Positions 2,481-52,900 of a stretch of 64,000 nucleotides of DNA are shown one piece after another. The notes beneath the pieces are model-generated. The model ran no database searches, was not told the DNA's origin, and worked only from the letters and a program-made list of their open reading frames with translations. The first letter of the stretch is position 1, and every line of letters begins with the position of its first letter. This DNA is from a virus. The stretch covers positions 1-64,000 of the IMG/VR virus record IMGVR_UViG_3300044922_000409, one strand, 5' to 3'. The position numbers and the translations under genes were made by a program.

Positions 2481-5400
2481 TTATATTATTCCTGCGTTAA
2501 TTAATAAAAAGTCTAAAGTCGGGTTTGGTGCCGGAGTAGTTGATAATTTACTTGGCGTTTCTAACATTCTCCAGTTAGAGTTTGCTGAATTATAAACAAA
2601 TGATAAAAATGCCCCGTTAATATCTACTACAAAACCTATAGCATCTAATTCAATATATTTACCAACAGCATTTGGTTTAAGGGTTAAATTGTTTGTTGCA
2701 AATGAATTGTATACATCGATAACACTAACTATATCACCGTCGACCGGAAGTGCTGGAAACTTAATACTAAATGCAGATAATCGAGTATCACACCTGACAA
2801 AATCTCCGGATACTGCAGTATAGTCTGCAGTTTTAATTCCAGTAGCAGTACCAGCGCCACCACCGCCTCCTGCTATTGCGCCCCACGCAGTACCGTTATG
2901 TCCTTCAAATTTGTTTGATGTATTGTTAAACCGTAAATTACCTGCTATCGGAGTCGCTGGCAACGTGGAGGTAGATGGAAGAACAAGCGATGCAGTAATT
3001 GTTAATGTACTTGTATTTAGTGTGCCGTTAACGGTAGTAGTTATACCTGAAGACCCAATTGTAATTGCAGAAGTACCATATGTTCCAACAGTAGCTTGTG
3101 TTCCTATGTTAATAGTACCTAATGTAAGGGTACCACCTGCAGCAGGTGAACCACCATCGATATATACAGAACCACCAATTTTAATACCAGTTGCTGCACT
3201 CGGTGCACCGCCTACTATTTGGATATTACCGCCTGTGCCTGCAGTTGCTCCGGCCGAATTTCCGCCTTTAAGTATAAGTGCACCACCTGTTGATGTTGCA
3301 GCAGTTGAAGTACCACCATTTACAGTTATGTTACTACCGGTTGCAACTGCTTGACCAGAATATCCTGGACTAATACTAACAGTACCCGCTTGACCTCCAG
3401 ATGCCCCAGCACAATCACCAGATGCAATATATAATGCACCAGATGCCCCTACTGTAGAATTACCACTAAACAAATATACTGCACCAGTAGCACCTGCAGT
3501 AGTAGTACCAGTTGAAAATGTTAAAGTACCTGATGACACCCCAGTTGCAGTACCAGTTGATATAGTAACAGCTCCGGATGCAGCAGAAGAATTACCTGAG
3601 TTAATAGTAATTGCACCAGTTGTACCACTTGTTGTAGTTGTACCGGTTGATATTGCAATTGCAGTTGATGCAGCGGCTGTTTTATTAGATGAAGTAAATC
3701 CAGTAATACCAGTTAGTGCAATCTCAGATGATGTGTTTCCTAAACTAATTGATGTAGTACCAACATATAACGATCCGCTAATTGCAGTCCATGCAAATGC
3801 AGATCCGGTCCAATTTAAATATCCGGTTGTTGGTGTTAAAAATCCAGTAGCATTTAAACCGGTTTGATATACAAGTTGATTAGCAGCTCCGGCAGCTATT
3901 CCAGCTGCATACCCAGATGTATTTTGATTTAATGTCGGTATATCAGCACTAACAAGTGATCTAAAAGTTGGTATTGCTAATCCAGTAGTCGGTCCTGCAT
4001 AAACTATGTTTGCTGATTGAGATGTAAATGCTGTTTGATATGTAGTAGTATCAGCACTTAATTGACCGCCTGTTCCTAATTTTACAAAACCGGATGTACC
4101 AACTGTTGGTAATTTAATTGTACCATTTGCAACAATTGTTCCTGTAGTTGAACCAATAGTTATAGTGCCAGTGGTAATACCAGTCCATGCATTAATAATA
4201 CCAGTTGTTACATCAGTTGTTAAATTAATAGTACCTGCAGCAGTACCGGCAATTTTTAATATATTACCAGTAATTGCGCCACCTACTGTAGCAGTAGTTA
4301 ATGCAGTTGTATTTGTTCCTAATGCAATTGTAGTAGTAGTTGTACCACCAACTGTTACGCCGGTTGCAGATGCTAACACCTGAGCAGTATCTAATACAGT
4401 TACATTATTGATTTTATATGTTTTACCTGTAGCAATATTCCAATGTTCACTAGATGTCCAGTTAGTATTAGTAGAATCCCAAATAATAGTTTTATTACCA
4501 GCACTACTTAATAATGTTATGCCGCCGCTATTTGCAGTTGCATCAGTTGCTCCGGTGGTTGTAATAGTAGTAACTGTACCAGCAACTGGCGTTGTACCAC
4601 CGGTATATGTGTAAGTAACACTAGTTGAACTTACAATAGATGTAACAACTGCAGCACCTGATGCACCTAAACTACCAGGAGAACCATTAGTTGCAGCAAT
4701 AACTGACCCAATTATTAATCCAGTTGTGGAACTCATACTGGTAATTGTTGCAGTCCATGGGCCTGTTCCTGATATGGTTCCAACTGTACCGGTGGTACTT
4801 ACAGTTATTGCTGCTACTGATCCTAGTTCAATATTCTTATCATCAACTGTTAACGTTGAAGAATTTACAGTAGTTGTGTTACCGTTAACAATTACATTTC
4901 CGTTAACTGTTAAATCCGATCCAATTGTTGCAGTACCTGTAGTAGTTAATGTAGTAAATGCACCAGTTGACGCAGTAGTTGCACCAATTGACATATTGTT
5001 AATTGTACCGGTTGTGCCTGATCCAATTGTAATAGTACCAGTACTTGATGTAGTATACGATTGATTATTTGTAGTGGTATTAATAGTAATTGCACCAGTT
5101 GCACTTAACGTAGTAAATGCACCAGTTGACGCAGTAGTTGCACCGATAGTACCGGTAAAGTCTGTTGCTTTAACTCTGCCAGCTGCAAATATTGACCATG
5201 CATTTGTAAGTGTTGTATTTGCACTACCTACAGGAGCTGCTACAAATAAATTAGCAGCATCAGTAATTGTAATACCAGTATTAGTACTTGCAAAAGTAGG
5301 TGCGTTAATTACGTTGATATAACTGCTTGCTACAGTGCCGTTTAGTGCAGTTGATGTATCGGTGTAAGTACGTGATTGTAATTTTAAGTTAATACCGGCA

Positions 5401-24199: not shown

Positions 24200-25113
24200 T
24201 CGGAATCTGCATATTTTAATACAAGATCACCTTGTTTATTTCGTTTAAAACGATCAGGGGTATATCCTTGTGCTTTATCTGACGCTTGTTGAGCAGCTAT
24301 ATCAGCAGGGTTTGTTGATGGTTTAGCAGTAGCAGTAGCATCAACTGGTTTATTAGTTGTTGCTGTTGCATTAGCAGGTTTTTCTGTTGCAGTAGGTTTA
24401 GTAGCTGTTGCGTCTATAGGTTTATCAATTGTAGCAGCTTGATCAGCAGGTTTTTCTGTTGTAGCTGCTGCATCAGCAGGTTTTTTAGTTGGCTCACCTG
24501 TTGCAATGCTGTCAGCTTCTGCAATTGCATCTTGCACCATTTTACTAAATTGGTCAACTGCTTGATTAGCTAATGCACCGACATCTTTAACACCGTTAAT
24601 TGTTCCAAATGTTAGAAATTTAGAAAGCATTATTCTGCCTTCTTCTGACGCAATTTTCTGAAACACGTATGTTTGTGCACCTGCAGATAATAAATTAATT
24701 GTATTTGCAATAACTGGCCCAACACCGGGAATAATTCGTATAAATCCAAGCAATGAGCTGATAGATCCAAATACTATTTTTGTTACTAATGCTGAGGCTA
24801 AAGATGAAATTAGCAAACCCATTTGGATATTATGTTCTTCGTTATAATCCATTTGAGCTTCTTTTGAATTTTTTGATTGTTTTAAAACATCGTTAGCATT
24901 TGACATATTTGTAAAATATGTATAAAACGGTTTAAGTAAGAAAAATAAGCCAGCTGCTTTTAATAATTTTAATGCCGCATTTGCAGCTGTAGAGAAGAAG
25001 CCCTCTTGCAATGGCTTAGACGTAGTAGCAGATGCAATTTCTGATAGTTTTCGTAGTTCTTGATGAATGAGATATTCATTCGGTGTTTTAGCAGTAATCT
25101 CGTATATTTTCAT
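24196..25113 (-). CDS. Hypothetical late protein with hydrophobic segments and a KPxDAxAT low-complexity tail; possibly an internal/ejected virion protein
   Basis: 305 aa with MKIYEI start, hydrophobic stretches (AALKLLKAAGLFFLL, GLLISSLASALVTKIVFGSISSLLGFIRIIPGVG), AATAAATA at 25160-25167 and an AGGA site. Confidence 0.7.
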   Translation of the reverse strand: MKIYEITAKTPNEYLIHQELRKLSEIASATTSKPLQEGFFSTAANAALKLLKAAGLFFLLKPFYTYFTNMSNANDVLKQSKNSKEAQMDYNEEHNIQMGLLISSLASALVTKIVFGSISSLLGFIRIIPGVGPVIANTINLLSAGAQTYVFQKIASEEGRIMLSKFLTFGTINGVKDVGALANQAVDQFSKMVQDAIAEADSIATGEPTKKPADAAATTEKPADQAATIDKPIDATATKPTATEKPANATATTNKPVDATATAKPSTNPADIAAQQASDKAQGYTPDRFKRNKQGDLVLKYADSD

Positions 25114-25187
25114 TTATAATCCTGTTTGATAGATCGTACTATCCCTTAATTGTTATTCATATTTATTAAAAAATAATAATCATCTTA

Positions 25188-25230
25188 AGATGAACTAGCG
25201 TTCATCTGTATTTCGTTATCACTCAATACA
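25188..25230. repeat. Two adjacent inverted repeats
   Basis: AGATGAAC-TAGC-GTTCATCT (25188-25207) and TGTATT-N12-AATACA (25207-25230). Confidence 0.75.
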
Positions 25231-25239
25231 TTTTTATAG

Positions 25240-25320
25240 AAGAAACAAAATATAAATTAATATTTAAATATGAAATAATAATTTAAATATGAATTAATAA
25301 TTTATTTAATAATAAAAAGA
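25240..25320. repeat. Extremely AT-rich tract with a duplicated 13-mer ATTTAAATATGAA (25262-25274, 25281-25293); candidate DNA-unwinding element
   Basis: Read directly; almost no G/C over ~80 bp. Confidence 0.6.
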
Positions 25321-25324
25321 TAGA

Positions 25325-25762
25325 TATCACTTTGGAGTCAGATGCACCCTAATAAAACTGGATGCAAGAAATCACCCCATCGCCATGGAATTGCAGTAAG
25401 AATTTAATGACTGTAGACTCTCGCTATTGGCTACCTCCCAACCAACACTTACAGGTATTTTTAAGATATAACTTTCAGGTGCTTTGTATATCATTACGAA
25501 ATTGTTACTATGTCTAGTATTCTACAGATTCTACGGACTCAGCATGCGAGCTTTTTGTCCACCATTCCGATTAAACAAAGCATTGACACCAATGGGGTGT
25601 TGCTTTAAGGCATCCTTATTGCGTTAAGGGTAGTGTTTAAAAGTCGCTATGCAATTAGCGATTTGAACAGCGGTTCACACATCAGGAACTTATCCAGCAG
25701 TATTATTATTCCGGCCTGCTAACCTTATGTTGCATTATATATTAAGTGTTTTGTGTGTTCTG
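25325..25762 (-). ncRNA. Putative large structured non-coding RNA (~430 nt), family not recognised
   Basis: No ORF in the track. At least 7 local hairpins plus long-range pairings. Several stems need G-U pairs that exist only on the minus strand. Perfect TATAAATA immediately upstream. Confidence 0.65.
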
Positions 25763-25767
25763 TCTGA

Positions 25768-25775
25768 TATTTATA
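25768..25775 (-). promoter_or_regulatory. Perfect T4 late promoter TATAAATA pointing into the non-coding region
   Basis: tatttata on the plus strand; no tracked ORF for more than 600 nt downstream. Confidence 0.7.
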
Positions 25776-25805
25776 ATTGTGTTGTTAAGCAACCCGCAGA
25801 AGTGA

Positions 25806-26225
25806 TTAACCTTTACGAGCAGCTAATTCTGCAAGATCATTTGCACGTTCATTACCTGGATTACCTGCATGAGCTTTAACCCATTGCCAATCTATAGTAT
25901 GTGCAGCAGCAACAGTTTCTAATTTAAGCCAAAGATCACGATTTAAGTAATCAGTACGACCTTTCTTTTTCCAATTAGGAAACCATTGTGTAAAACCGTC
26001 AACGAGATATTTTGAATCAGAATAAATTCTAACTTTACATGGTCTTGTTAATCTAGAAAGTGCTTCAATAGCAGCTTGCATTTCCATGCGGTTGTTAGTA
26101 GTTTTTGGTTCTGTTCCAGAAAATTCTTTTATAACGTCTTTGTATTGCATAGTTATTCCCCATCCGCCTTTGCCTGGATTAGGTACGCATGCGCCGTCTG
26201 TATAAATTATTACAAGTTCTTCCAT
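25806..26225 (-). CDS. rnhA: Ribonuclease HI (bacterial type)
   Basis: Motifs YTDGAC.PNPGKGGWG, TTNNRME, SDSKY, NRDLW and WVKAHAGNPGNERA align by eye with E. coli RNase HI D10/E48/D70/H124. Confidence 0.96.
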   Translation of the reverse strand: MEELVIIYTDGACVPNPGKGGWGITMQYKDVIKEFSGTEPKTTNNRMEMQAAIEALSRLTRPCKVRIYSDSKYLVDGFTQWFPNWKKKGRTDYLNRDLWLKLETVAAAHTIDWQWVKAHAGNPGNERANDLAELAARKG

Positions 26226-26305
26226 AGTGTTTTGTGTTAGATTATATTGTGTTTAGTTCTTAAACAAATATTTATCTGAACAACTTCTCCACCTTGTTAG
26301 AAACG

Positions 26306-26334
26306 ATTATACAGTAATAGTATAAGGATGTCAA
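26306..26334 (-). promoter_or_regulatory. Perfect-consensus sigma70 promoter upstream of RNase HI
   Basis: TTGACA (26334-26329), 17 nt, TATAAT (26311-26306). Confidence 0.9.
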
Positions 26335-26338
26335 CTGA

Positions 26339-26860
26339 TCATTTTGCCAAACATAAAGTCTTAACAGCTTCATTGTTTGCATTCCAAAAAGAATCGTAAT
26401 CTGTAAACACCCATTTACCGTTCTTTTTGGAATGATAGTCTACACTTTTTTGTAGTTTGAATTTTTTAATATGTTTATGTTCAAATGCAACATACGAGCC
26501 TTTGCGATTAAACTTCATCATAATGATATTAAAATCATCTGTATCAGCAACTTCTAAAGTTTGCTCAATCCAAGTATCTAAAATCTTAATTTCACCTGCA
26601 GTAAACAATTGATGAAATGGAAAATCAGCATAGGATTTACATTCGGCATTAAAATGTTTCCAATTTAATGGCGGTACAATATCACCCTTCATAGCACGAA
26701 TTTGTCCTTCATGTAAGAAGTCTTTACGCACTGCATTCTTACCTCCGATATAAGCACCGCTGCCTGGTACCCTCATAAAATGACTTCCATATAAAGAGCT
26801 TAAATGTTTTGATACGGTGTTTTCCCAACTGTTCCCTTTTGATTTGCTCTTACTCGGCAT
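26339..26860 (-). CDS. PD-(D/E)xK nuclease, Holliday-junction-resolvase-like
   Basis: Motifs SKSKGNSWE, RVPGSGA, GDIV and AECKSY, in the recombination operon. Confidence 0.75.
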   Translation of the reverse strand: MPSKSKSKGNSWENTVSKHLSSLYGSHFMRVPGSGAYIGGKNAVRKDFLHEGQIRAMKGDIVPPLNWKHFNAECKSYADFPFHQLFTAGEIKILDTWIEQTLEVADTDDFNIIMMKFNRKGSYVAFEHKHIKKFKLQKSVDYHSKKNGKWVFTDYDSFWNANNEAVKTLCLAK

Positions 26861-40500: not shown

Positions 40501-40975
40501 ATCTATCTCAGATGAAATAATTTATCATGCAGTTAACTATAAAATATTGTTCGGTGCAACTGCTGATCCGGAATTGCAAGCAGTATTTAAAATTACAAAA
40601 ACTCCAGGACAGATAATATCTGATAACGATATTAAATCGCAAGTAATAGTTGCAATTAATACTTTCTTTAATTTAGACAACTGGGATTTTGGAGATACAT
40701 TTTTCTTCACAGAGCTAGCAACATTTGTAATGAATCAACTAGCACCAAAAATTTCAAATTTTGTAATTGTACCTCGAAGACAAGGTTTAAATTTTGGTAG
40801 TTTATTCGAAGTTAAGTCATTAAGTAACCAACTTCTTATAAATGGAGCAACGGTTGATGATATTGAACTTATATCCGGAATCACTGCAACTAATATTAAA
40901 ACATCAAATGTAATGTCTCTTGATAGTACAATAAATCGTCAATCTATAACTAGTTCTACATATGGGAATATCTAA
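37538..40975 (+). CDS. gp6: Baseplate wedge protein, gp6-like
   Basis: Motifs DFQSYDFENLR, FNDYIESSE, ENFLELAERRDSILRL, FSDGTFGNMP and IKANAP..YYTQNRMITGEDY. Confidence 0.9.
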   Translation: MSATDRQNRLLVAEDWKKIYQSFRSADFQSYDFENLRRTMVDYIRQNYPEDFNDYIESSEYLALLDVIAFLGQSVAFRVDLNARENFLELAERRDSILRLSQLVSYNAKRNIPAHGLLKFTSVNTTQDIYDSNGNSLSGQTVTWNDSSNPIWYDQFIKVINAALPGTQRFGNPVDSSIIYNIPTEQYTFQSATADVPIYAFSKTVAGRSMNFEVTSTTFAGQDYIYEEAPKLKNRLSCVYRNDGHGYGSAGSGFFFNFTQGTIGHSQFTVDQPRSNDLINIASTGINNTDVWLYRLDKNGDETETWTQVPSLKGNNIIYNSVNKNIKNIFGVTTRANDAITLNFSDGTFGNMPYGTFKVYYRLSNGLSYTVNSKDIRNVSITIPYMSNMGQQESLTISLALSTTITNAESSETNASIKANAPASYYTQNRMITGEDYNICPLSVSQQVLKVKAVNRSSSGISRYFDLVDPTGKYSSTNLFADDGVIYKDNYESYTKFSYINKTDIEGVIYNVVNNILTKSELRNFYYSKYTDFAKLGSNLQVGWRAVTSDVVSSTGYIYDLQATGEVYKVGPQYTVSDLKYVTLGSLIKFVAPTGYYFNLDNQNKLEEAISVNYAPNTSLYIWAAVVAIVNDGRANGIGVLSSGAGPITLNVNIADGAIISQIIPKCRTTLDLNVINTMIDLIFENKSFGLSYNAAQQVWQLVFESNIDSTSQFSLINQGSITNTQKDASWMLLFTTDNEYYTITSRETRYIFESDSQIRFYFDSSEKVYDSRTNSVVRDKIKVLSINKQISSYNSYTTDFVWDVVSEYIGLDGYVDNKKIVVSFADSDDNGIADDPELFTNLVLYQQYILQEKYQISLGQEDYRYVANNSKVWIIPELTTIGDVGLYYYIPGSNTVTQASSTGVLEPTLDYKVYEGRANLKFQYIHNANYESRIDPGVSNIIDVHVLTKGYDTAFRQWINGAAISKPLPPSADELYNTLSPSLNLIKSISDEIIYHAVNYKILFGATADPELQAVFKITKTPGQIISDNDIKSQVIVAINTFFNLDNWDFGDTFFFTELATFVMNQLAPKISNFVIVPRRQGLNFGSLFEVKSLSNQLLINGATVDDIELISGITATNIKTSNVMSLDSTINRQSITSSTYGNI

Positions 40976-43900
40976 TGGTTAACAAAAAAATAACTTTACC
41001 TAGAAGTACAGCAACCGATACAAGCAACAGTGATAATACTGCAAATTTTTTACCTAGTTATTACCGAACAGACACTAATAAAAAATTCTTACATGCAACA
41101 ATTAATCAGTTAACCCAGCCGGGTACTGTAAAAAAAGTTAACGGGTATATTGGTCGATTAAATGCTAAAGCATCCTCATCGGCTGATATTTTTATAAATG
41201 CGCCTACTCAGGTTAGGCAAAATTATCAATTAGAACCTGGGTTAGTAATAACTGATAATATAGATAATACTGTATATCTAAAAGATTATCAAGATTATAT
41301 TAATCAGTTGCGTGTTAACGGCGCAAATGTATTTGATCATTCTAGATTAAATAATCAAGAATTTTACAGTTGGGATCCACATATCGATTGGGATAAATTT
41401 GTTAATTTTCAAGATTACTATTGGTTACCAAACGGTCCTAATACTATTAGTATTAGTCATGCTGCTACGACTGACCAAAGTGTATTTACAGTAACGATTG
41501 ATACGGCTGGTCTTGATTCTGCATATGTGTTTACACCTAATGGATTTAATAGAAATCCAACAATTACATTATATAGAGGAAAAACTTATGAATTTAACAT
41601 TCATAGTACTGACAACGTGTTTAGTTTTAAAACTATTCGAACTGAAGGTACACTAAACCGATACATAACACCTACATTAGATAACAATTCAATTACTTCG
41701 GGTAAAATTATATTTACCGTACCGTATAATGCACCGGATGTGTTATTTTATGTAAGCGAATCTAATATTGATCTTGGTGGCACAATTAGTATTTTAGATA
41801 TTAACACTAGCGGATTCATTGATGTTGCTACTGAAATTATAGGCAAACAATCATTCCAAATGCCAAATGGTAAATTATTAAGTAATGGTATGTGTTTATT
41901 GTTTACTGGTGAAGTAACACCGGCATTATATGCAACCGGAAAATTTTATGTTGAAGGTGTTGGCACTGCTATTAAATTAATTCCAGAGCGTGATTTAGAA
42001 ATAATTGCACCATATACTACCTCCGAAATGATTTTATTTGATGCAACCCCGTTTGATACAACACCATTTAGTGATGCTACTACATTTGCAGGAAATCCAG
42101 ATTATATTGTAATTAACAGAAGCAGTACTGACAAAAATCAGTGGAGCCGATATAATAAATGGTTTCATAAAAGTGTAATTGAAACTAGTGCTGCAATTAA
42201 TGGAATAACTGCAACTGTTGATCAGTCTATGCGTGCAGTTAGACCTATTATTGAGTTTGATGCTAATTTAAAATTATTTAATTTTGGAACAACTGCAATT
42301 ACTGATATCTCAATTATTGATCGGTATACAACTGATGCATTTTCAACAATTGAAGGATCACTTGGTCACACCGTTGACAACATCCCATTACAACATGGAC
42401 AAAGAATTATATTTACTGCTGATACTGATCAATTAGTAGCAAACAACGTGTATCGTGTTGAATTTATTGATGTGAAACATACAACTGACGGATTCGGAGT
42501 TTCTAATAGTCGACAAATTCGACTTGTATTAGAATTAAAACCATCTGAAAATCAAGTTGTATTAGTGCAACAAGGCACAATATCACAAGGTACTATGTTT
42601 TGGTATAATGGTAATACGTGGATTAGTGCGCAACAAAAAACTAAACTAAACCAACCACCATTATTTGATGTAGTTGATAGTAATGCAATAAGTTTTGGTA
42701 ACGGTGCTGTATATCCAGGTACTACATTTAAAGGTACTTCTGTATTTTCGTACAAAGTTGGTACCGGAATAGCAGACAGCAAATTAGGGTTTCCTCTATC
42801 GTATAAAAATATTAATAACATTGGTGACATAAATTTTAATTTTACATTATTAACTGATATGTTTCAATATGATCAATCAAGTAACACTATTACAAAAACA
42901 ACAGATGTAGGATATTTAATTAAAACTGTTAACGGACACGTGAATTATGTTAACGGCTGGCAAACAAGTTCTGTATCAAATGTGCAACCAGCGGTTCGCA
43001 TTTACAGAAATTCAGAGATGACAAATAATTTTGATATAGATATTTTTGATACGTTACCTGCATTAATAGACATTAGTGTTCGCGTTTATATAAATGGCAT
43101 GCGATCACCAGCTAGTAATTGGGTTATTAAAACTACGGCAACTAGCGTTACAGTTGGCCAAGTGCCGTTGACACAATATCAAATTGTGTTTAACACACCT
43201 GTGTTGTTAACTGATTGCGTAACTATAAAAGTGTATTCGCGTACTCCTATTAACACAAATGGGTTTTATGAAATTCCGATTAATTTACAACATAATCCAC
43301 TAAATGGTGTACTGACTGAGTTTACACTAGGCGAAGTAATTGATCACGTTGATAGCATTATTGATAACATTTATACAGGTACATCATTTGTTGGTATATT
43401 CCCGGGTCTTAGTAATTTGAGAGATTTAGGAAATGTAACACAATTTGGTACAAAATTTGTTCAGCATAGTGGACCACTTAGTTTGCCAATGTATCATTTA
43501 ACATCGGCTAACAATGTAATTAATGCGATTGAAAAATCAAGAGACGACTATTGCAAGTTTAAACGTGCATTTATGGTGTTAGCTGAAACATTAGGAGTAG
43601 ATACCCATCCTATTAATCATGTAAATTTAATTTTGCGTACACTAAATGCAGATGTTCCAGCAACTGCTCCTTACTACTTTAGTGACATGGTACCATATGG
43701 AGCGTATTCGAAAATTGATGTTACTGTTCGTGACCCTGAATCTAATATTTTCTCATTATCTAAAGTGTTTAGTTTATCAGAATTGTCAACTTCGGCAGTT
43801 CTTATATATGTAAATGACCGGCAGTTATTGCACGGTAAAGATTATACGTTTAGCAATCAAGGATTTGTAATTGTTACTGCACTATTAAACGTTGCTGATG

Positions 43901-46900
43901 TAGTATCAGTGTATGAATATAGCACTACTGACGGATGTTTGATACCAGAAACACCTACTAAGTTAGGTATCTGGCCAAAATATGAACCAAAAATATTCTT
44001 AGATACTACATTATTAACTCCTTCAAGAATGATACAAGGACATGACGGTAGTTTAATATTAGCATATAACGACTATAGAGATGATTTGATTTTAGAATTA
44101 GAAAAGAGAATTTATAATAACATTAAAATTAAATATGATCCTACTATTTTTGATATATGTGATATGATTCCTAGTTATGCTCGAACTACTGATTATAGCT
44201 TAGACGAATTTAATTTAGTGTTATCTGCAAACTATTATCAATGGTCAACACATGTTAAAAAAGATTTTTCAATACCTTCATTACCTGGAACTAGAAATAA
44301 TCCTTTTACATTTAATTATAGCAGCAATTTTGCTCCAGATGGTCGACCAACACCTGGATTTTGGAGAGGTATTTATCAATGGGTGTATGATACTGATCGT
44401 CCACACTTATGCCCGTGGGAGATGCTAGGAATTAGCGAAGAACCAATTTGGTGGAGTACAGTATACGGATTGGCACCGTACACTAGTGATAATTTAGTGA
44501 TGTGGAATGATATTAGTAACGGATTGGTAAAAGAGCCAGATCAACCAATTGTTAAGAAAACTAAATTTGTTAAATCTTTTTTGATGAATTATTTGCCCGT
44601 TGACAGCAATGGTCGATTAGTTAGTCCATTAACAAATAATATTGCTAGCGGAACATCATCAAGTGATGTTCAATTATCCTTTAAGTTTGGTGATGTATCG
44701 CCAACTGAAGCTGCTTGGAGACGTCATTCACATTATCCATTTAGCGTATTAAAAACACTATTATTATTAAAACCTGCAATGACAATGGGATTAACACTAG
44801 ATAGAAACCGAATTGTTCGAAATTTAACAGATCAATTAATATATTTAGATACTGGTGTACGTATTAGACTGGCTGATATTAAATTGCCGAGTGTGTATTT
44901 AAGTAGCACCCGGGTACAAACTGCAGGTCTTATAAATTATTTGGTAAATTATATTGATTGTAATGAATTGTCGTTATACAATGAATATAAAAATAATTTA
45001 TCAAAAGTAACTGCGCAGTTATGTTATCGTGTTGGTGCATTTACTAGTAAAGAAAAGTTTAATTTATTATTAGAATCAAAATCACCGTCGTCAGTTGGCA
45101 ATATTTTTATACCACCAGAAGATTATAAAGTAATAATGAATACGTCATCTCCGATTGCATCATTAGTATATAGCGGTGTTACTATTACTAAAGTAGAAGG
45201 TGGATTCGAAGTTACCGGATATAGCAAAACCCAACCGTATTTTACATACTATGCTAGTTATTATAGCGGTTCAACTATTACAGTTGGCGGTATTTCTGCA
45301 GTATATTCCGTATGGACACCGTACCATTATTATGTAGTTGGATTTGTAGTTAAGTATAACAATTCATATTGGCAAACTAAAATTTCACATAATTCAACTG
45401 AATATTTTTCAATAGATCATTTCACACTGTTACCATCTATTCCGATTGTTGGTGGTTCTAAGGTTGAATTTAGAACACGTTGGGAGTCTACTGAAATAAT
45501 TGTACCATATGGTACTAAATTTTCGTCAATACAAGAAGTAACAGATTTTTTATTAGGTTATGGAAAATGGTTAACAGATCAAGGATTTGTATTTGATGAC
45601 TATAACGATCAGTTAGGGTCAGTATCCAATTGGGAAACTAGTGCTAAAGAATTTATTTTTTGGACTGCAAACAATTGGGGAGTATCTCAACAGTTATGGG
45701 ATGATTGGGTACCGGATATGTTAATTACCTTTGATACAATTGTTCGATATACCGGAGATTATTATCGTGCAATTAGAACAATGCAAGAACCAGTATTTAA
45801 TGAGACTGATTATGAATTAATAAACGGTCTTAGTTCTAATGGAAATTCAGTCATAACACTAAGTCCGGCTGCAACTAAACTGCAATTTAAAACTATTTTA
45901 AGTGTAGTAGACGATATTACTAATCCGGATTATGTGTATGAGATGTTTAATGCGCAAGGTAGTCCAATTCATTCTAATCTAGTAAATTCATATAGGTCAG
46001 GTAACATAGTAAGTTATTCCACTACTGATATTAACGCATACATTTATTGTGCTAGTTTTTACTTAGTGCAAAAAGAACATGTTATTGTGATGAATAATGC
46101 AACTATGTTTAATGATGTAGTTTATAATCCAGAAAGTGGATATAAACAAGACAAAATTAAAGTGTCCGGATATGTTAGCATTGAGTGGAATGGCTCATTA
46201 AATGTTCCGGGATTTATCGTAGACAGTGCAATCATACATGAATGGGAAATATGGAAAGATTATTCAGTAGGTGATATTGTTAAACACCAAACATTTTATT
46301 ATAGTGCAAGTAAATTTTTGTCAGGTACACAAAAATTTAATGATTTAGACTGGATTAAGTTAACAGAAAAACCAACTGCAAAATTATTGCCAAACTGGAA
46401 TTATAAAGCAACTCAATTTACTGATTTCTACAGTTTAGATAGTGACAATTTTGATGCAGCTCAACAAAAAATGGCTCAGCATCTTATTGGATACCAAAAA
46501 AGACAGTACCTAGAAAATATTATTCAAGATGACACTAGTGAATTTAAATTTTATCAAGGTATGATAATTGAAAAAGGTACAACAAATGTTCTTAACAAAC
46601 TTTTTGATGTTTTGAGTCTCGATGGTCAAGAAAGTATGGAGTTTTATGAAGAATGGGCAATTAGAACCGGACAATACGGCGCAAGTTCAGCATATAATAC
46701 TGTTGAATTTATATTAGACGAGGCATTAATAAGAACTAATCCGCAAGGAGTTGAATTAGTTACGACTACACAACAACTTGATGATCGTATTATTCGACAA
46801 ATTCCGTCTGATGTGTATGTAAAACCATTAGGATATACTCCGTATATTTGGCCTGCATTATCGTCAACGTCATCTATATTACGATCAAGCGGCCATGTTA

Positions 46901-49900
46901 GAGCTGATGAAGTAACAGTTACCATTCGATCACCTGAAGAGTTAACGACCCTTGATCCATCAGTATTACCTATTAACTCGTATGTGTTATGTACCTTTGA
47001 AAATGCAAGTTGGAATGTGTACCAAATTATATCATCTAAGTTATCACTTATTGCAATAACAATGATAGATGATACCACTGTAGAAATAACAGTTAATTCT
47101 TACATTAATTTTGATGTTGATTCATATGTTGGTATTAAACACAACTCGTTTAATTCATTTTATAAAGTAGTAAGTATCGGAACAAACAATTTTAGAATTA
47201 ACATAGCTGGATTAAAGATTCCGACTAATGTTAAAACTATTTCACTTGTTACTGCAAAATCTCGTCGTGTAAGTTCAATTGATAATATGAATTATACGTT
47301 AGCAGATTTAGGAACATCATCATTATTATGGGCAGATAACACATTAGCTAATGATCAGACATGGGCAACTTGGAAACATCAATCTGTTTATACAAGAAAT
47401 ACGGTGTTTAATCAACAGTTAATTGATAATTTAAAATTTGGAAAAAGCGTTGCATCAACTGCAGACGGTAACTTAGCAGCAATCACAACTGCGCTTGGCG
47501 AGGTTATGATCTACGATAGGTTAGGTAGTTCTAAACCATGGACTCTCCGCCAAGTAATTAATAAACCGTTTATATCATCAGTTACTCCTATTGCAGACAC
47601 AATTGCAACTGTTGTTGCTATATCTAAAGATGGTAAATGGCTAGCAACTGGATCACCAACTGCTAGTTTTGCAACGGTGTCGATGCCAATGACTGGTTTA
47701 AATGTAACTGATATTAACGGTTTAAATACCGAGTATCCTGGGCAAGGTGTTGTGTCAATATACGAAAACACCAATAACATGTTTACATTAGTTAACACAG
47801 TTACGAGCCCAATGCCACAGTCGCATGAAAATTTTGGATTAACTTTAGAATTTAGTATCGGTGCATCGCAATCATTGTTTGTAGGAACATCTCGTAGTTA
47901 TAGTACAGTTTATCGATTGCAGTATATAGAAACAATCCGTGCAGGTACATTGTATAATCCAAATGGCAGTACTTCAACTTCTATTCAAGTTTCGACAACT
48001 GTTGATATTGTACCTGGCATGCGTATTAGAGGTACAAATATTGATAACATTGTAACCGATGTTATTGATGATACAACTATCGTTCTTAATACGCCGTTGT
48101 CTGCAGATCCTGATGGTAATTTAATATTTTCTACATTAGAATGGAACTATTGTAATGAAGTATATTATAACGATCAGCCTGGTAGCAACTATGGTAAATT
48201 AATTAGGGTGTCAGCCGATGGCGCCATTTTAGTAATTTCTGCACCATATGGGTATGGGGTGTTTAGTTCCGGTCAGGTATACATATATGAATACGATATT
48301 ATGTTAAATTCTTACATACTGTTAACGACGTTGTCATCAACTAGTTCAAATTCACATAGTATTATGATGGAACAGTATGGTCAAAGTATTACGGTATCAA
48401 ATAACGGTGAATACATAGCAGTATCAACACAAATGAACACGTACACAGTTAACAGTAACTTACAGTGGGTACAGATGGCATCAATCGGAATAGTGTATAT
48501 TTATGAACGTAACGGAAGTGACTATAACTTGTATTATGAACCGATTGCTGCATCAGATATTACTAGCGGCTTTGGTACAGACATTCAATTCACAAATGAT
48601 TATTCAACACTTGTAATTTATAGTCAAAATACAGATAACACACACCGAATGTCTATTGATGCTGGCACAACTACATTTGATGCAGCAGAATTAGATACGA
48701 TTAATACTACTACTATTACATATACACTTACTGAGTTTGGCGGCATTGACGTCTATGATCGGTATGGACTGAGTTGGGTTATTAGTGAACGATTAACTAC
48801 TTTATCATTATCTGAAGATGGATACGGAACATCTATTGTTGCAACACCGGACAGTATACTAGTTAGTTCACCGTTTGCAGAAACTAGAGTTTCACAGTAC
48901 ATTAATTTGCAAACTGGCATCGTATACGATTATGTTAAACCGACCAACCAGTACAGTTGGACAATAAATCACTATCCTGTTGCCAAACCCGATGTAAAGA
49001 AAATTAAACAAGCATTTTTATATAATAGATCAACTAACAAATTAATAAAGCATTTAGATCTAGTTGATTCGTTACAAGGTAAAAATTCAAGTATTGCTGA
49101 TCAGGAAATTAAATTTAAATCGTTTTACGATCCAGCAGTATACAGTTCGCAAGTAGACAATCCAACATGGGTTAATGACGGTCTTGTAAATATAGATGAT
49201 GGAATAGCATGGACTACAAATCAAGTAGGTGCATTATGGTGGGATTTAAGAACAGCTAAATTTATTGATAGTTATACGGATGATGTAGTTTATAGAAACA
49301 GTACATGTAGTACACTTGCATTTGGTGCATCGATTGACATATATGAATGGGTTGAAACAGATCTATTACCGTCGGAGTGGGATGCAGAGGCAGACACTGA
49401 AGCAGGATTAGCAATTGGTATAAGTGGAAAGTCGTTATATGGTGATAATGCATTTAGTTACTGTCAACGATATAATAAGTTAACTCAACGTCTTATAAAC
49501 ACTTATTATTTTTGGGTTAAGAATAAAATAACAATACCGTCAATTCCGGGAAGAAATTTGTCAGCAAATACGGTATCTAATTTAATTGCAAACCCGCGAG
49601 GCGCAGGGTACGAGTATTTGGCATTAACTGGATTAAATTCGTTTAGTTTAGTAAATGTAAAATCACTATTACATCATACTGATGCGGTATTATCAGTTGA
49701 GTTTTGGAATGGCAATACTGTTGATCAAAATATTCATTCACAGTGGAAACTTATTAGCACTTCTCCTAGAACAACTATACCTGCAAATATAGAACAAAAA
49801 TGGTTTGATAGTTTGTGTGGGAAAGATTTAGGAAATCGAGTAGTGCCTGATCAATCGCTGCCAGTTAAATTGCAATATGGAATTGAAAATCGCCCACGCC

Positions 49901-52900
49901 AAAGTATGTTTATTAATCAATACGAAGCATTAAAGCAACTAATTGAGCAAACTAACATAGTGTTACGCTCAAATTTAATAGTTGATACTCGTAATATGGC
50001 AAACTTGCACAAGTATGATGAACTTCCAAGTGTAACACGCGGATTATACGACGACATTATTGATACTGATTTAGAATTACGATTTGCAATTGCAAAGTCG
50101 TATATTAAACCAGAAATTACACCAATAATAACAGATAGTGCAATTACTGGAATTATCGTAGTGTCTCCTGGACGCGGGTATTTAATAGCTCCGTATTTTA
50201 CAGTTATTGGCAGCGGTACAGGTGCAATTATTAAATCGGTAATTAATGTAGCTGGTCAAATCATTGGTTGTGAAATTATAAGATCAGGAGTTGGGTATAA
50301 TAGTACTACTACATTAGATATTAGAGATTATTCATTATTAGTTAAAAGTGATTCTGCATCAAATAACGGATGGAGTATATACGCGTATCAATCAGCTACT
50401 GAAACATGGAGTAAGACACTATCTCAAACTTATAATACTACCCGATATTGGGATTTAATTGATTGGTATGCAGATGGATATACACAATTTACAGCAATTA
50501 CTCATTCAATTAATACATATGCTGATTTAAATTTGATTAGTGTTAAAATTGGAGAACATGTAAAAATAAACACAACAAGTTCAAATCGATGGGTTCTGTT
50601 AAAAAAATATGCAAATGTAACATCAGTTGACTGGACACTTTCATATAAAGTTATTGGTAGTCAAAACGGTACAATTCAATTTAACTCATTATTATATGAT
50701 TTTAACGATACAGTAATTGGGTATGATGGATTGTTGTATGATTCTGGAGTATTTGATAACGGCGCATCAACCGAGTTACGGATAATTTTAAATTCAATAA
50801 AGGACGATTTATTAATTGACGACTTAAAATCACAATATTTAAGTTTATTTTTCTCTAGCATTCGATATGCAATGTCTGAACAGACATATATTGATTGGAT
50901 TTTTAAAACAAGTTTTGTTAATGTGACTCACAAAGTCGGTAATTTACATCAGTCAGTTACATATCGTAATGATAATTTATCAAATTTTGAGGATTACGTA
51001 TCAGAAGTAACACCGTATAGAAGTCAAATTAGAGAATATGTAAGTTTATATAATAATATTGATGTAGGTAAATTTGCAGTAACCGATTTTGATATGCCAC
51101 CTGCAATTATCAATGGTAGTATTGCCCCTGTAGTTGCGGTAATTAACAGTGATGATGAAATTATAGTATCCTCTGGAAATATAGATAGTTATCCATGGAA
51201 AAGTTGGGCCGATACTGTAGGTTTTTCAGTAGTATCAATAAAATTATTAGATGGAGGTTCTGGATATGTGTCTGAACCGACTATTAAAATTTCTGGAGCA
51301 TCCGGTTCAGATGCTCATGCAACTGCATTTATTTTAAATGGTAAAGTAAATCGAATTAATTTGATAACATATGGCTCAAAATATTTGTCAATACCGACTA
51401 TTTCGTTTGAAGGTGGGTTACGTGCAGGCGGAGTTTCTGCAAGCGCAATTGCAATTTTAGGAAACAGTGTTGTCCGATCTAATCTAGTTGCTGTTAAATT
51501 TGATAGAGTTACATCAACATACGATGCAATTACATTATCTCATACAGAAACATTTGTTGGAACCGGATCAAAATTGCAATTTCCGTTAATATGGGTTCCG
51601 AATGTACAAATTGGGTATTCTAGCGTAACAGTTAATGGAATTTCGGAATTGCGTGATAACTATACACTTCGAATTGTTACTTCTAATATTAACGGAACTG
51701 TAAAGTATTCTGGATCAATAACATTTGTAACAGCACCACCTGTTGGATACGAAATTAATGTAACATATATGAAAGACGTGTCGATGTTAACAGCTGCTGA
51801 TCGTATCCAGTATTTTTATAATTCTCCAGATGGCGGATTAGGACATGAACTATCACAGTTAATGACCGGTGTTGAATACGCCGGTGTGATACTTAGCGGA
51901 AAAGATGTTAATACTGCAAACGGTTGGGGAAGTGGCGGTTATTATACTGATAAATGGGATAGTTATAAATCGGTAATTGATGATTACAGTATAACAGTGT
52001 CTGCTGATGTGCATGATATTCAAATGCCATATGTACCAGTAGTTGGTACTATGCTAAATGTATATTATTATCCAGTAAGTATTGCAGATACATTTAATAC
52101 TGATGGTAGAACGTTAACTTACACCTATTCTAATTATGAACAAGTTCCGACTGTTAATTTATATAAGGTTGTATCAACTTCATTAGTAACTGCAGCTTTA
52201 AGTGATATAATTTATGTAACTTCGGTATACGGCATTAATGTTGGTGATACAGTTACTGATTTTACTAATATCAAATGGACTAAATTATTAAAAGCAACGT
52301 CTACTAGTATTGCTAACGGACATTATTATGTAACATTATCATCGATTGATCAGTTAACTATCGGTATGCCGTTATTATTCTTAGGTAATGAATTTAGCAA
52401 TTTGCAAGACGGATATACATATTATGTTAAAACTATCAGTGCTACTAACCGTATTACAATTAGTGGCACAGTAAGCGGACCTGAAATTGTATTAACTGCT
52501 GATACCGGTAGTATGACAGTAGTAGTTGGTGCATTCAAGTATGATACTACTGTAATTGAAGTTAATAAAATAACTAATGCTGTAACATTATCTCAACCAG
52601 TAAGTACTATTATATTAGAAAATACTTCATTAAAATTTGGTCGAACATTGTCAAAGTATCAAGATTTAGCAAATATCAGTAGAACTAAATTTACATTAAT
52701 GAAAAAATTACCAATTGGCATGATTATAGAAGTATCGGGTACAAGAGAAGCTATTAGACTTGATGATGATAATTATGGTAATATAACTACTATACCTAAA
52801 AATACTAATGCAATCATGTCACCGTATATTGCAGACGGTACCGGCGATATGATTATTATACCTACTAATTATGTAGATGTATACGGAAACACTCGTACAT

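What the first reader, a model, noticed from the sequence alone, without database searches (positions are those of the whole stretch)
25325..25762. Unrecognised ~430-nt RNA with many hairpins and loop-to-3'-end pseudoknot pairings
Stems found by eye (plus-strand coordinates): 25696-25700/25716-25720, 25644-25649/25656-25661, 25614-25618/25625-25629, 25577-25606 (two stacked stems), 25465-25470/25487-25492, 25425-25432/25440-25447 and 25343-25349/25360-25366. A 7-bp long-range helix CUGUAGA/UCUACAG (25521-25527 with 25411-25417) encloses a multibranch domain. Two hairpin loop regions are complementary to one 3' segment: AAUUGCA (25650-25656) with UGCAAUU (25389-25395), and CACCCCAU (25592-25599) with AUGGGGUG (25373-25380). 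Wobble positions are G-U only on the minus strand, matching the promoter direction. I could not match it to tmRNA, RNase P, SRP, or group I/II intron hallmarks. Inference: a compactly folded large ncRNA, possibly a ribozyme or a structural/packaged RNA.
Basis: partly seen in the sequence, partly recalled or inferred. Interest (0 to 1): 0.85.

Follow-up and report, generated by a model that had tools for sequence, protein, structure and literature searches.

The report
Divergent Polynucleobacter-1-type jumbo-phage RNA gene
The gene-free stretch behind the RNase H gene of this uncultured giant T4-like lake phage encodes a real, conserved, intricately folded non-coding RNA of about 440 bases; it is a strongly diverged member of a large phage RNA family of which only one domain is catalogued (Rfam Polynucleobacter-1), and its function is unknown.

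Summary
Window 25322-25736 (minus strand) is a conserved structured RNA. It is kept at 73-79% identity behind the RNase H gene in about 18 related IMG/VR contigs. 91 base pairs in 17 helices are 98.7% paired, and 12 pairs show compensatory changes (shuffles 5.0±1.4; slid controls 0-2). G-U pairs fit only the minus strand. No ORF, tRNA/tmRNA or Rfam hit lies there. The single-sequence MFE z-score is about 0, so the support comes from covariation and not from folding energy.

It is not a new class. More distant relatives lack RNase H but carry an RNA of about 400 nt directly behind the same PD-(D/E)XK "resolvase" gene. The first 141 nt of that RNA are Rfam RF01718 (Polynucleobacter-1, function unknown). 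The uncatalogued remainder has two strongly covarying pseudoknots. The window RNA shares the locus, the 5'-domain architecture, the terminal hairpin and tail, and a diagnostic 3' double hairpin. Its central core is different, and RF01718 does not detect it.

A paralog in a complete 372-kb relative links the two types. Those genomes carry 2-3 paralogous RNA genes.

The scan has met this family before on other genomes. My best guess, unproven, is a stand-alone RNA that acts in trans as a folded scaffold. A replication-primer role, a cis role and a ribozyme remain open.

The parts
25768..25775 (-). T4-late-type promoter box TATAAATA upstream of the RNA
   Evidence: Read directly. Relatives have TGTAAATA, TATAAATA or CATAAATA in the same column. 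It is a consensus match only. Two metatranscriptome contigs run upstream past it, so read-through from RNase H is also possible.
25745..25756 (-). Leader repeat ACACAAAACACU. A second copy at 26226-26237 abuts the RNase H start codon.
Evidence: It suggests the RNase H cassette was inserted into the RNA leader.
25571..25736 (-). 5' domain. P1 is 25696-25720, P2 25665-25695 and P3 25644-25661. The long-range helix P4 (25635-40/25571-76) encloses CACUACCC-hairpin-GGAUG (25611-25635) and the stacked hairpin 25577-25606. This is the Polynucleobacter-1-like fold.
   Evidence: Covariation: (14 pairs with changes on both sides once paralog L134 is added). CM R2, built from RF01718-positive loci, finds it at E 0.007 within the intergenic region. 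The motif is unique in the window. L134 serves as a bridge.
25535..25560 (-). Variable hairpin (GGAC...GUCC), with lineage-specific inserts in relatives
   Evidence: The closing pairs are kept while the interior is replaced. L019 carries a 27-nt insertion.
25411..25527 (-). Lineage-specific core. H1 closes a junction with H2 (GUAA-type loop in relatives) and H3. H3 encloses H4, a 17-nt invariant single strand and H5 (loop GGGAGGU, which can pair with either of two ACCU sites at 25452-56 and 25476-80).
   Evidence: 29 pairs, 99.6% paired, 4 pairs with changes on both sides (10 cells), against 0-1 in slid controls. CM R1 finds this core only in the window group, among 82 loci. It is single copy in the 372-kb genomes.
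25376..25410 (-). Nearly invariant linker. It holds UGCAAUU (25389-95), the proposed partner of the P3 loop, and AUGG(GG).
   Evidence: Pairing is compatible in all sequences but not compensatory.
25322..25375 (-). Terminal hairpin (25343-49/25360-66) flanked by two same-sense boxes, GUGAUUUCU (25367-75) and GUGAUAUCU (25322-30), with UCUGAC between them
   Evidence: The layout is the same as the last hairpin, the UGUGACC motif and the twin boxes of the canonical family.
25230..25321 (-). A+T-rich spacer (about 24% G+C), variable between relatives
   Evidence: Every paralog and canonical member has an A/U-rich spacer before the double hairpin.
25188..25229 (-). 3' double hairpin. Hairpin 1 (25208-29) has a covarying stem around GAGUG-AUA-ACGAA. 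Hairpin 2 (25188-207) is AGAUGAAC/GUUCAUCU.
   Evidence: A family HMM hits it at E 2e-4 in the whole window, and the iterated profile at E 6e-8. It is present behind nearly all family members and all paralogs. A terminator-like call lies here, on the plus strand only.
25806..26225 (-). RNase HI gene (context). It is inserted between the nuclease gene and the RNA in this lineage only.
   Evidence: Pfam RNase_H at 1e-43. It is absent at this place in L037-L042 and in most metagenome loci. Its own TTGACA-17-TATAAT promoter is at 26306-26334.
26339..26860 (-). PD-(D/E)XK nuclease gene (PDDEXK_15, annotated as 'RusA-like Holliday junction resolvase'). This is the conserved upstream neighbour of the RNA family.
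   Evidence: In canonical loci the RNA starts 8-17 nt after its stop codon.

Best explanation
Shown:
- Window 25322-25736 (minus strand) is an RNA gene for a multi-domain structured non-coding RNA of about 415-440 nt. With its A/U-rich spacer and terminal double hairpin the unit is about 585 nt (25188-25775).
- It is a strongly diverged member of an RNA family of uncultured T4-like jumbo phages. That family sits behind the PD-(D/E)XK 'resolvase' gene of the gp47/gp46 recombination-nuclease operon. Its 5' third is catalogued as Polynucleobacter-1 (RF01718).
- Genomes of this lineage carry 2-3 paralogous genes of the family. The paralogs share the 5' domain and the 3' double hairpin but differ in the centre.

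Inferred:
- It is made as a stand-alone transcript. It has its own late-type promoter here, a sigma70-type promoter in a paralog, and a common terminal hairpin pair.
- It acts in trans as a folded RNA.
- The conserved 5' domain is probably the handle for a common partner, most likely a protein.
- The variable centre and the short boxes flanking the last hairpin give each paralog its specificity.

No biochemical activity is known.
For: Real structured RNA:
- The stretch is 73-79% identical across relatives.
- Covariation supports the fold.
- G-U pairs fit only the minus strand.
- There is no ORF under any stop-codon reading.

Family link:
- The synteny SbcD / SbcC / small ORF / PDDEXK / non-coding gap is kept in distant relatives.
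- 58 of 68 metagenome loci share the downstream RNA.
- RF01718 scores 61-123 bits in 19 loci.
- The family's uncatalogued 3' domain covaries: 247 cells with changes on both sides against 83±8 in shuffles.
- Its two pseudoknots are 90% paired, with 101 such cells against 26±5.

Window against family:
- The double hairpin matches at E 2e-4.
- CM R2 finds the P4 subdomain at the expected place in three lineages, E 0.007-0.026 within the intergenic region.
- The CACUACCC...GGAUG motif occurs once in 64 kb and only in RNA loci of the 372-kb genomes.
- Paralog L134 is hit both by the window-group profile (E 6e-8) and by RF01718 (28.7 bits, E 3.6e-5).

Stand-alone gene:
- The canonical paralog has TTGACA-17-TATAGT and its own double hairpin, far from any PDDEXK gene.
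- In many loci the gene downstream of the family RNA is convergent. This argues against a 5'-UTR role.

Expression:
- Contigs of 4 metatranscriptome runs (2 studies), 100% identical, cover 25391-25807 in pieces.
Against: - Homology of the window RNA to RF01718 is not shown by any single significant hit. Rfam gives nothing at E<=10. R2 scores only 7.9 bits, E 0.63 over the whole window. Sequence HMMs of the family's 5', middle and tail segments find nothing.
- The central core (H1-H5) has no counterpart in canonical members.
- The RNA contigs cannot show strand, ends or abundance, and they may derive from DNA. Two of them run upstream of the putative promoter.
- Nothing tested here bears on what the RNA binds or does. 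The trans-acting scaffold reading is inference from anatomy alone.
- The MFE z-score is about 0.
Confidence: 0.5

Rival explanations
1. Replication-origin primer RNA. The folded transcript runs into the A/T-rich spacer, forms a persistent R-loop there and is trimmed by RNase H to prime leading-strand synthesis, as with ColE1 RNA II or the T4 oriF/oriG transcripts. Several paralogs would then be several origins.
For: - An A/T-rich tract follows the RNA body in the window (24% G+C) and in all paralogs.
- An RNase HI gene lies directly upstream here, and beside a 1-kb unannotated gap next to the resolvase gene in Sinorhizobium phage Phosso.
- The locus sits in the recombination/replication gene block.
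- There are 2-3 copies per 372-kb genome.
- Earlier notes of this scan proposed the same idea (e1-6069111, e1-5618612, e1-5684341). Those notes are unchecked.
Against: - RNase H is absent from this locus in most of the family. Here it looks like an insertion flanked by a 12-nt repeat.
- A primer needs no doubly pseudoknotted body with invariant loops, yet selection is clearly on RNA pairing.
- The promoter here is late-type, whereas origin transcripts of T4 are early or middle (established knowledge of T4).
- The paralogs lie on different strands and are unevenly spaced: G007 at 131 kb -, 272.5 kb -, 353 kb +.
- No R-loop or replication data exist.
Confidence: 0.15
2. Cis-acting 3' element of the recombination-nuclease operon. 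On this reading it is a 3'-UTR structure that blocks 3' exonucleases, directs processing, or controls termination and read-through into the next gene.
For: - In canonical loci the RNA starts 8-17 nt after the PDDEXK stop codon with no visible promoter.
- RNA-library contigs in the window run from the RNase H stop into the RNA.
- The unit ends in a conserved hairpin pair.
- Weinberg et al. 2010 scored the motif as possibly cis-regulatory (PMC2864571, Table).
Against: - About 400 nt with two covarying pseudoknots and invariant loops is far more than protection or termination needs.
- Paralogs stand alone with their own promoter, away from the operon.
- The window copy has its own promoter-like box.
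- Downstream genes differ in identity and orientation.
Confidence: 0.12
3. Ribozyme. The compact pseudoknotted fold would carry out self-cleavage, ligation or another reaction.
For: - It has the size, multiple pseudoknots and invariant unpaired stretches typical of large ribozymes.
- It is phage-borne, like several self-cleaving classes (general knowledge).
Against: - There is no match to any ribozyme, intron or RNase P model in Rfam, even at E<=10.
- No conserved catalytic-core signature was recognised.
- RNA contigs show no consistent break point, but contigs cannot show one.
Confidence: 0.1
4. A DNA-level element (iterons, recombination or packaging signal) whose apparent RNA structure is incidental.
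For: - Same-sense short boxes that stay alike within one element but differ between phages resemble iterons.
- The MFE z-score is about 0.
Against: - Compensatory changes and strand-specific G-U pairs show selection on RNA pairing.
- RNA-library contigs cover it.
Confidence: 0.03

Closest known systems
Polynucleobacter-1 RNA motif (Rfam RF01718; Weinberg et al. 2010, Genome Biol 11:R31, PMC2864571, Additional file 1)
   Same: - The genomic place is the same: downstream of the GOS11034 / PDDEXK_15 gene.
- The 5'-domain layout is the same. A P1 hairpin follows GGYU. Two hairpins come next. A long-range helix then encloses ACUAYCC-hairpin-GGAYG and a further hairpin.
- The habitat is freshwater.
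- The function is unknown.
- A paralog in a sister genome (L134) is hit by both RF01718 and the window-group profile.
   Different: - RF01718 covers 141 nt. The real RNAs are about 400-440 nt, plus a spacer and a double hairpin.
- The window RNA scores nothing against RF01718.
- It lacks the GGGAYGGAA stretch.
- Its centre (H1-H5) is unrelated to the canonical 3' domain.
- The 2010 paper found no example in a purified phage. Here the carriers are 372-kb T4-like phage genomes with terminal repeats.
GOLLD and ROOL (large phage-associated ncRNAs of unknown function; Rfam families)
   Same: They are large, ornate, phage- or prophage-borne stand-alone RNAs with pseudoknots and no known function. 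This works-like comparison rests on general knowledge only.
   Different: - There is no sequence or structure match in Rfam at any threshold used.
- There are no adjacent tRNA genes.
- The hosts and phage type differ.
- Multimer formation was not tested.
ColE1 RNA II and the T4 oriF/oriG origin transcripts (R-loop primers)
   Same: A transcript is followed by an A/T-rich tract, and RNase H lies nearby in this lineage. This is an analogy only.
   Different: - There is no homology.
- The association with RNase H is lineage-specific.
- The promoter here is late-type.
- Selection is on an intricate fold, not on a hybrid-forming stretch.

Membership tests
Rfam RF01718 Polynucleobacter-1 | Covariance-model score at or above the gathering cut-off (37 bits) | tested here: not met
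   No hit in the window, the intergenic region or the whole 99.7-kb record, even at E<=10. Positive controls score 61-123 bits in 19 related loci. The canonical paralogs of sister genomes score 59.6 and 61.1 bits.
Rfam RF01718 Polynucleobacter-1 | A long-range helix enclosing ACUAYCC-hairpin-GGAYG and a second hairpin (model positions about 84-138) | tested here: met
   UUAAAC/GUUUAA (25635-40/25571-76) encloses CACUACCC...GGAUG and the hairpin 25577-25606. My CM R2 aligns it this way in L011 and L019 (E 0.007 and 0.026 within the intergenic region). The motif is unique in the window. The helix itself is invariant in the window group, so it has no covariation of its own.
Rfam RF01718 Polynucleobacter-1 | A 5' hairpin P1 preceded by GGYU, followed by two further hairpins (P2, P3) | tested here: inconclusive
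   Hairpins stand in the same order and covary. They are aligned to the model with mismatches and a low score (7.9 bits). The conserved GGGAYGGAA linker is missing.
Rfam RF01718 Polynucleobacter-1 | Location downstream of the GOS11034 / PDDEXK_15 gene | tested here: met
   Same locus, with an RNase H gene inserted in between (PMC2864571 suppl.).
Rfam RF01718 Polynucleobacter-1 | Homology through an intermediate sequence | tested here: met
   L134 (G007:272537-272684) scores RF01718 28.7 bits, E 3.6e-5. The window-group nhmmer profile hits it at E 6e-8. Helices are compensated between L134 and the window group.
Extended jumbo-phage family (canonical 3' domain with PK1/PK2) | Hairpin Pb whose loop pairs downstream (PK1), and a GAGG-UACCGGNNNACCG-CCUC hairpin whose loop pairs upstream (PK2) | tested here: not met
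   No Pd-type motif occurs in the window or the whole record. The middle and tail HMMs find nothing. The window instead has the H1-H5 core.
Extended jumbo-phage family | A terminal double hairpin (stem-GAGYG..RCGAA-stem, then an AGAY...RUCU hairpin) after an A/U-rich spacer | tested here: met
   Window 25188-25229, at E 2e-4. It is present behind nearly all members.
tmRNA / tRNA / RNase P / SRP / group I and II introns / GOLLD / ROOL / OLE / HEARO | A match to the family's covariance model or to ARAGORN | tested here: not met
   The best Rfam E-values in 25000-26000 are 1.3-9.8, to unrelated eukaryotic snoRNA/miRNA models.

The most novel reading that the evidence does not exclude
The RNA family is the RNA partner of the PD-(D/E)XK 'resolvase-like' nuclease encoded directly upstream. 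The conserved 5' domain would bind the protein. The phage-specific twin boxes and the variable centre would select a nucleic-acid target. That would make it an RNA-directed PD-(D/E)XK nuclease system in jumbo phages, with paralogous RNAs as alternative guides. Nothing tested here excludes this. The only support is the tight gene-RNA adjacency in canonical loci and the box behaviour. Paralogs without a nuclease neighbour neither support nor exclude it.
Probability: 0.06. Interest if true: 0.9.

Novelty: new variant of a known kind. Interest (0 to 1): 0.62.

Why it matters
Large, ornate non-coding RNAs of unknown function are rare, and they have repeatedly led to new biochemistry. This family is carried by abundant uncultured freshwater and marine jumbo phages. 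It has been represented for 16 years only by a 141-nt orphan motif attributed to a bacterium.

This work shows four things:
- The motif is one domain of a phage RNA of about 400 nt or more with two pseudoknots.
- Single genomes keep 2-3 diverged paralogs.
- Lineages such as this window have remodelled the centre beyond detection by the Rfam model.
- The RNA is not a 5' UTR.

That gives RNA biologists a defined set of sequences for probing, cryo-EM and partner searches. It also shows that catalogue searches under-count the family.

Tried and rejected
- **Coding:** six-frame translation shows 13-21 stops per frame of all three kinds, so no code rescues an ORF.
- **Rfam:** nothing at gathering and E-value thresholds on the window, and nothing for RF01718 on the whole record.
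- **ARAGORN:** no tRNA or tmRNA.
- **MFE z-score:** about 0 on both strands. It is not informative for an A/U-rich pseudoknotted RNA.
- **Collection searches:**
  - blastn of the region against cultured phages found no match.
  - blastn of a canonical RNA against cultured phages also found none.
  - The 305-aa downstream protein gave no related loci.
  - An exact-pattern scan of IMG/VR gave only two chance hits, because near relatives are hidden from such scans.
- **All-against-all column covariation** on 10 sequences is dominated by phylogeny and useless.
- **CM R1** on five distant virus records found nothing.
- **MAFFT alignment** of window-type with canonical RNAs is not reliable.
- **Sequence HMMs** of the canonical 5', middle and tail segments against the window found nothing.
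- **GTDB genome scan** with the nuclease alignment found one 3-kb MAG contig with no downstream sequence.
- **PA5oct:** its four published ncRNAs lie elsewhere in that genome (PMC7318152).
- **Twin boxes:**
  - Pairing of box 1 with box 2 has no consistent register and does not explain the same-letter co-variation.
  - The boxes do not co-vary with the terminal hairpin.
- **RNA-library contigs:** the parts of the 5-kb stretch without cover, and the absence of cover over 25171-25337, say nothing.
- **Not used:** one alignment call contained a mistyped one-base reference and its result was not used. Complex prediction, structure prediction and the third RNA model were not used.
Full report
**Setting**

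The window is the first 64 kb of a 99.7-kb IMG/VR virus record that is about 27% complete. Relatives are 372-kb genomes with terminal repeats. The genes are T4-like: portal, baseplate, gp55 late sigma factor, SbcD/gp47 and SbcC/gp46.

On the minus strand the order is:
- gp55
- SbcD
- a 293-aa ORF
- SbcC
- a 109-aa ORF
- the PD-(D/E)XK nuclease (PDDEXK_15, 'RusA-like resolvase'; 26339-26860)
- RNase HI (25806-26225)
- a 692-nt gene-free stretch (25114-25805)
- a 305-aa ORF of no known family

The stretch has no ORF in any frame. Stops of all three kinds are frequent, so no alternative code helps. ARAGORN and Rfam find nothing. The MFE of 25325-25762 is no better than dinucleotide shuffles on either strand (z = 0.13 and 0.01).

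Comparative data decide otherwise. The whole intergenic region aligns at 73-79% identity in about 18 IMG/VR contigs, always behind RNase H.

RNAalifold on 10 sequences finds 11 compensated pairs. G-U pairs occur only when the minus strand is read.

| Measure | Structure | 500 shuffles | Slid controls |
|---|---|---|---|
| Cells paired | 98.7% | not noted | not noted |
| Pairs with changes on both sides | 12 | 5.0±1.4 (none reach 12) | 0-2 |

It has CG<->UA in 4 sequences and GC<->AU in 2.
- The loop-to-tail pairing AAUUGCA/UGCAAUU is compatible in every sequence, but only through one-sided changes to G-U. I call it plausible.
- The second proposed pseudoknot overlaps a local stem that does covary. 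At most the four loop bases CCAU could pair with AUGG.

**What it belongs to**

More distant relatives (nuclease 49-67% identical) lack RNase H. They keep a gene-free gap of 380-730 nt directly behind the nuclease gene.

A metagenome scan with an alignment of the nuclease returned 80 loci.
- In 58 of the 68 non-window-group loci with enough downstream DNA, an iterated nhmmer profile finds a shared non-coding element.
- Where another gene has been inserted after the nuclease gene, the element lies after that gene.

Rfam recognises the first 141 nt or so of this element as RF01718, Polynucleobacter-1 RNA. It scores 61-123 bits against a cut-off of 37 in 19 of the loci tested.

The only paper in the library that mentions the motif is Weinberg et al. 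2010. It reports:
- 16 examples from freshwater or estuary metagenomes and one Polynucleobacter genome
- a position downstream of GOS11034 genes with possible homology to cyanophage P-SSM2 gene 218
- 'not detected in any purified phage'
- a '3' half not always detected'
- no function (PMC2864571, Additional file 1)

The family RNA continues for about 250-300 nt beyond the Rfam model. On 39 distinct sequences, which include lineages that lack the Rfam domain, seven further helices are supported:

| Measure | Observed | Shuffled | Slid controls |
|---|---|---|---|
| Cells with changes on both sides | 247 | 83±8 | not noted |
| Covariation score | 0.417 | 0.172 | 0.10-0.16 |

Two of these helices are pseudoknots:
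- PK1: a hairpin loop (UUAGCG in the reference) pairs with CGCUAA about 100 nt downstream.
- PK2: GUUGU pairs with ACAAC in the nearly invariant loop UACCGGACAACCG.

Together they are 90% paired, with 101 cells changed on both sides against 26±5 in shuffles.

Two short same-sense boxes flank the last hairpin, for example CUCAGAUGAAG and UCUAGAUGAAA. They differ between phages but stay alike within one RNA. I could not explain this by pairing between the boxes or with the terminal hairpin.

After an A/U-rich spacer every member ends in a characteristic double hairpin. The first is a covarying stem around GAGYG-NNNN-RCGAA. The second is an AGAY...RUCU hairpin. In many loci it abuts the stop codon of a convergent gene.

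**How the window RNA relates to that family**

Against membership:
- RF01718 gives nothing.
- My model R2, built from 16 Rfam-positive loci, scores 7.9 bits. That is E 0.63 over the whole window and only the second-best hit.
- Sequence HMMs of the canonical 5', middle and tail segments find nothing.
- The window's central core (H1-H5, model R1) occurs only in the window group among 82 loci.
- The canonical PK2 hairpin motif is absent from the record.

For membership:
- The locus is the same.
- The 3' double hairpin is detected at E 2e-4 in the whole window.
- R2's best hit inside the syntenic intergenic region falls at the expected place in three lineages (E 0.007, 0.007 and 0.026). It aligns UUAAAC/GUUUAA around ACUACCC-hairpin-GGAUG as in the Rfam consensus.
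- That motif occurs once in the 64-kb window (0.12 expected). It sits at the equivalent place in the Rfam-positive loci. In 372-kb genomes it occurs only in RNA loci, with none in reversed-pattern controls.
- The terminal hairpin, the U(C/G)UGAC motif and the two boxes have the same layout.

The decisive link is a paralog. The complete sister genomes G006 and G007 hold the window-type RNA once.
- Both also hold a canonical full-length RNA elsewhere, scoring 59.6 and 61.1 bits against RF01718. It has both domains, its own TTGACA-17-TATAGT promoter, an A/T-rich spacer and the double hairpin.
- G007 holds a third copy, L134. RF01718 hits it at 28.7 bits (E 3.6e-5) and the window-group profile hits it at E 6e-8.
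- Its P1, P3 and the stacked hairpin are compensated relative to the window group. There are 14 pairs with changes on both sides, against 4.3±1.6 in shuffles.

I conclude that the window RNA is a homologous but remodelled member. The 5' domain and 3' end are shared and the centre is replaced. It fails the Rfam membership test by score. I therefore file it as a new variant of the kind and not as an RF01718 member.

**RNase H**

RNase H is absent at this place in most of the family. Here the gene carries its own consensus sigma70 promoter (26306-26334). It is bracketed by two copies of ACACAAAACACU, one directly before its ATG and one in the RNA leader (lead from note e1-6069116). This looks like an insertion into the RNA leader and not a functional pairing.

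**Expression**

Contigs from four metatranscriptome runs of two lake studies are 100% identical to the window. They cover 25391-25544, 25445-25619, 25559-25743, 25599-25789 and 25605-25807.

Contigs cannot show strand, ends or level, and DNA carry-over is possible. Two pieces extend upstream of the TATAAATA box, which is compatible with read-through from RNase H. I count this as weak support for transcription only.

**How it probably works**

Shown:
- It is a conserved, pseudoknot-rich fold.
- It occurs as 2-3 paralogs per genome with a common 5' domain and a common terminal hairpin pair.
- Paralogs have their own promoters.
- Downstream genes vary and are often convergent.

From this I infer that it is not a 5' UTR or riboswitch. 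My best guess is a stand-alone RNA that acts in trans as a folded scaffold, with a conserved handle and a variable specificity part. My confidence in that whole statement is about 0.5. Most of it rests on the identity part; the mode of action is no more than a preference.

The replication-primer reading (0.15) has the A/T-rich tract, the gene neighbourhood and the multiple copies in its favour. Against it stand the late-type promoter, the lineage-specific RNase H and the intricate fold. A cis 3'-UTR role (0.12) and a ribozyme (0.10) remain open.

**Earlier notes of this scan**

I consulted these after I had reached the Rfam link, the pseudoknots and the boxes myself. They describe the same family on at least eight other genomes, with the same closest relative and with disagreement on the primer idea. 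They are unchecked notes and I do not count them as support.

**Cultured phages**

- None carries the canonical RNA by blastn.
- PA5oct has a look-alike double hairpin 1.1 kb upstream of its resolvase gene.
- Phosso has a 1-kb unannotated gap between RNase HI and the resolvase gene, with two GAGCGAAUAGCGAA-type hairpins.

Noticed in passing
window 25745-25756 and 26226-26237; 26306-26334: The RNase HI gene is bracketed by a 12-nt direct repeat (ACACAAAACACT on the minus strand) and has a perfect TTGACA-17-TATAAT promoter. It looks like a cassette inserted into the leader of the RNA gene.
   Followed up: partly
L133 (G006:322605-322749 and about 300 nt beyond); L132 (G007:353228-353372): The complete 372-kb sister genomes carry a second, canonical full-length Polynucleobacter-1-type RNA gene about 225 kb away from the window-type copy. 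It has its own sigma70-like promoter and double hairpin. Its upstream neighbour is a 301-aa ORF with a weak DUF5591 match, not a nuclease.
   Followed up: partly
L134:1200-1662 (minus strand; G007:272537-272684 for the 5' domain): A third paralog, present in one sister genome only. It has a window-like 5' domain, a different centre closed by a 10-bp helix (GUAGAGCCAA/UUGGCUCUAC), a long A/U-rich spacer and the same double hairpin.
   Followed up: partly
A6 columns about 372-388 and 464-484 (e.g. L101:3322-3336 and 3373-3387): The twin boxes flanking the last hairpin of the canonical RNAs change between phages but stay alike within one RNA. Examples are CUCAGAUGAAG/UCUAGAUGAAA, CUGGAGAAAG/CAGAGAAAA and CGACGAAUG/UGACGAAAU. 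Pairing between them does not explain this.
   Followed up: partly
L039:5517-5620; L041:5568-5700; L042:5574-5700: Some lineages replace the Rfam 5' domain by other 5' modules that share AGCCGAGGUAAGGCUCGU. L041 and L042 also have a different centre. The locus seems to evolve by module swapping.
   Followed up: no
L126:1830-1892 (Pseudomonas phage PA5oct, NC_071039.1 about 76770-76830): A double hairpin of the family's type lies 1.1 kb upstream of the PA5oct resolvase gene. The first hairpin is a stem around GAGUGUAAACGAA and the second is CAUCUACCCC...GGGGUAGAUG. It sits in a region annotated only with 39-50-aa ORFs. No RNA body was recognised.
   Followed up: partly
L128:1987-3000 (Sinorhizobium phage Phosso, PV764938.1 about 229759-230772): A 1-kb unannotated gap (43% G+C) lies between the RNase HI gene and the resolvase gene. 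It has many hairpins and two GAGCGAAUAGCGAA-type loops. It may hold a large RNA of a related kind.
   Followed up: no
window 25241-25320: The A/T-rich spacer of the window carries an extra run of about 32 nt of near-repeats (AAUUAUUAAUUCAUAUUUAAAU-type) that the relatives lack.
   Followed up: no
window 40975-54042 (+): A single 4355-aa ORF follows an 1145-aa ORF in the structural block. It was not examined.
   Followed up: no
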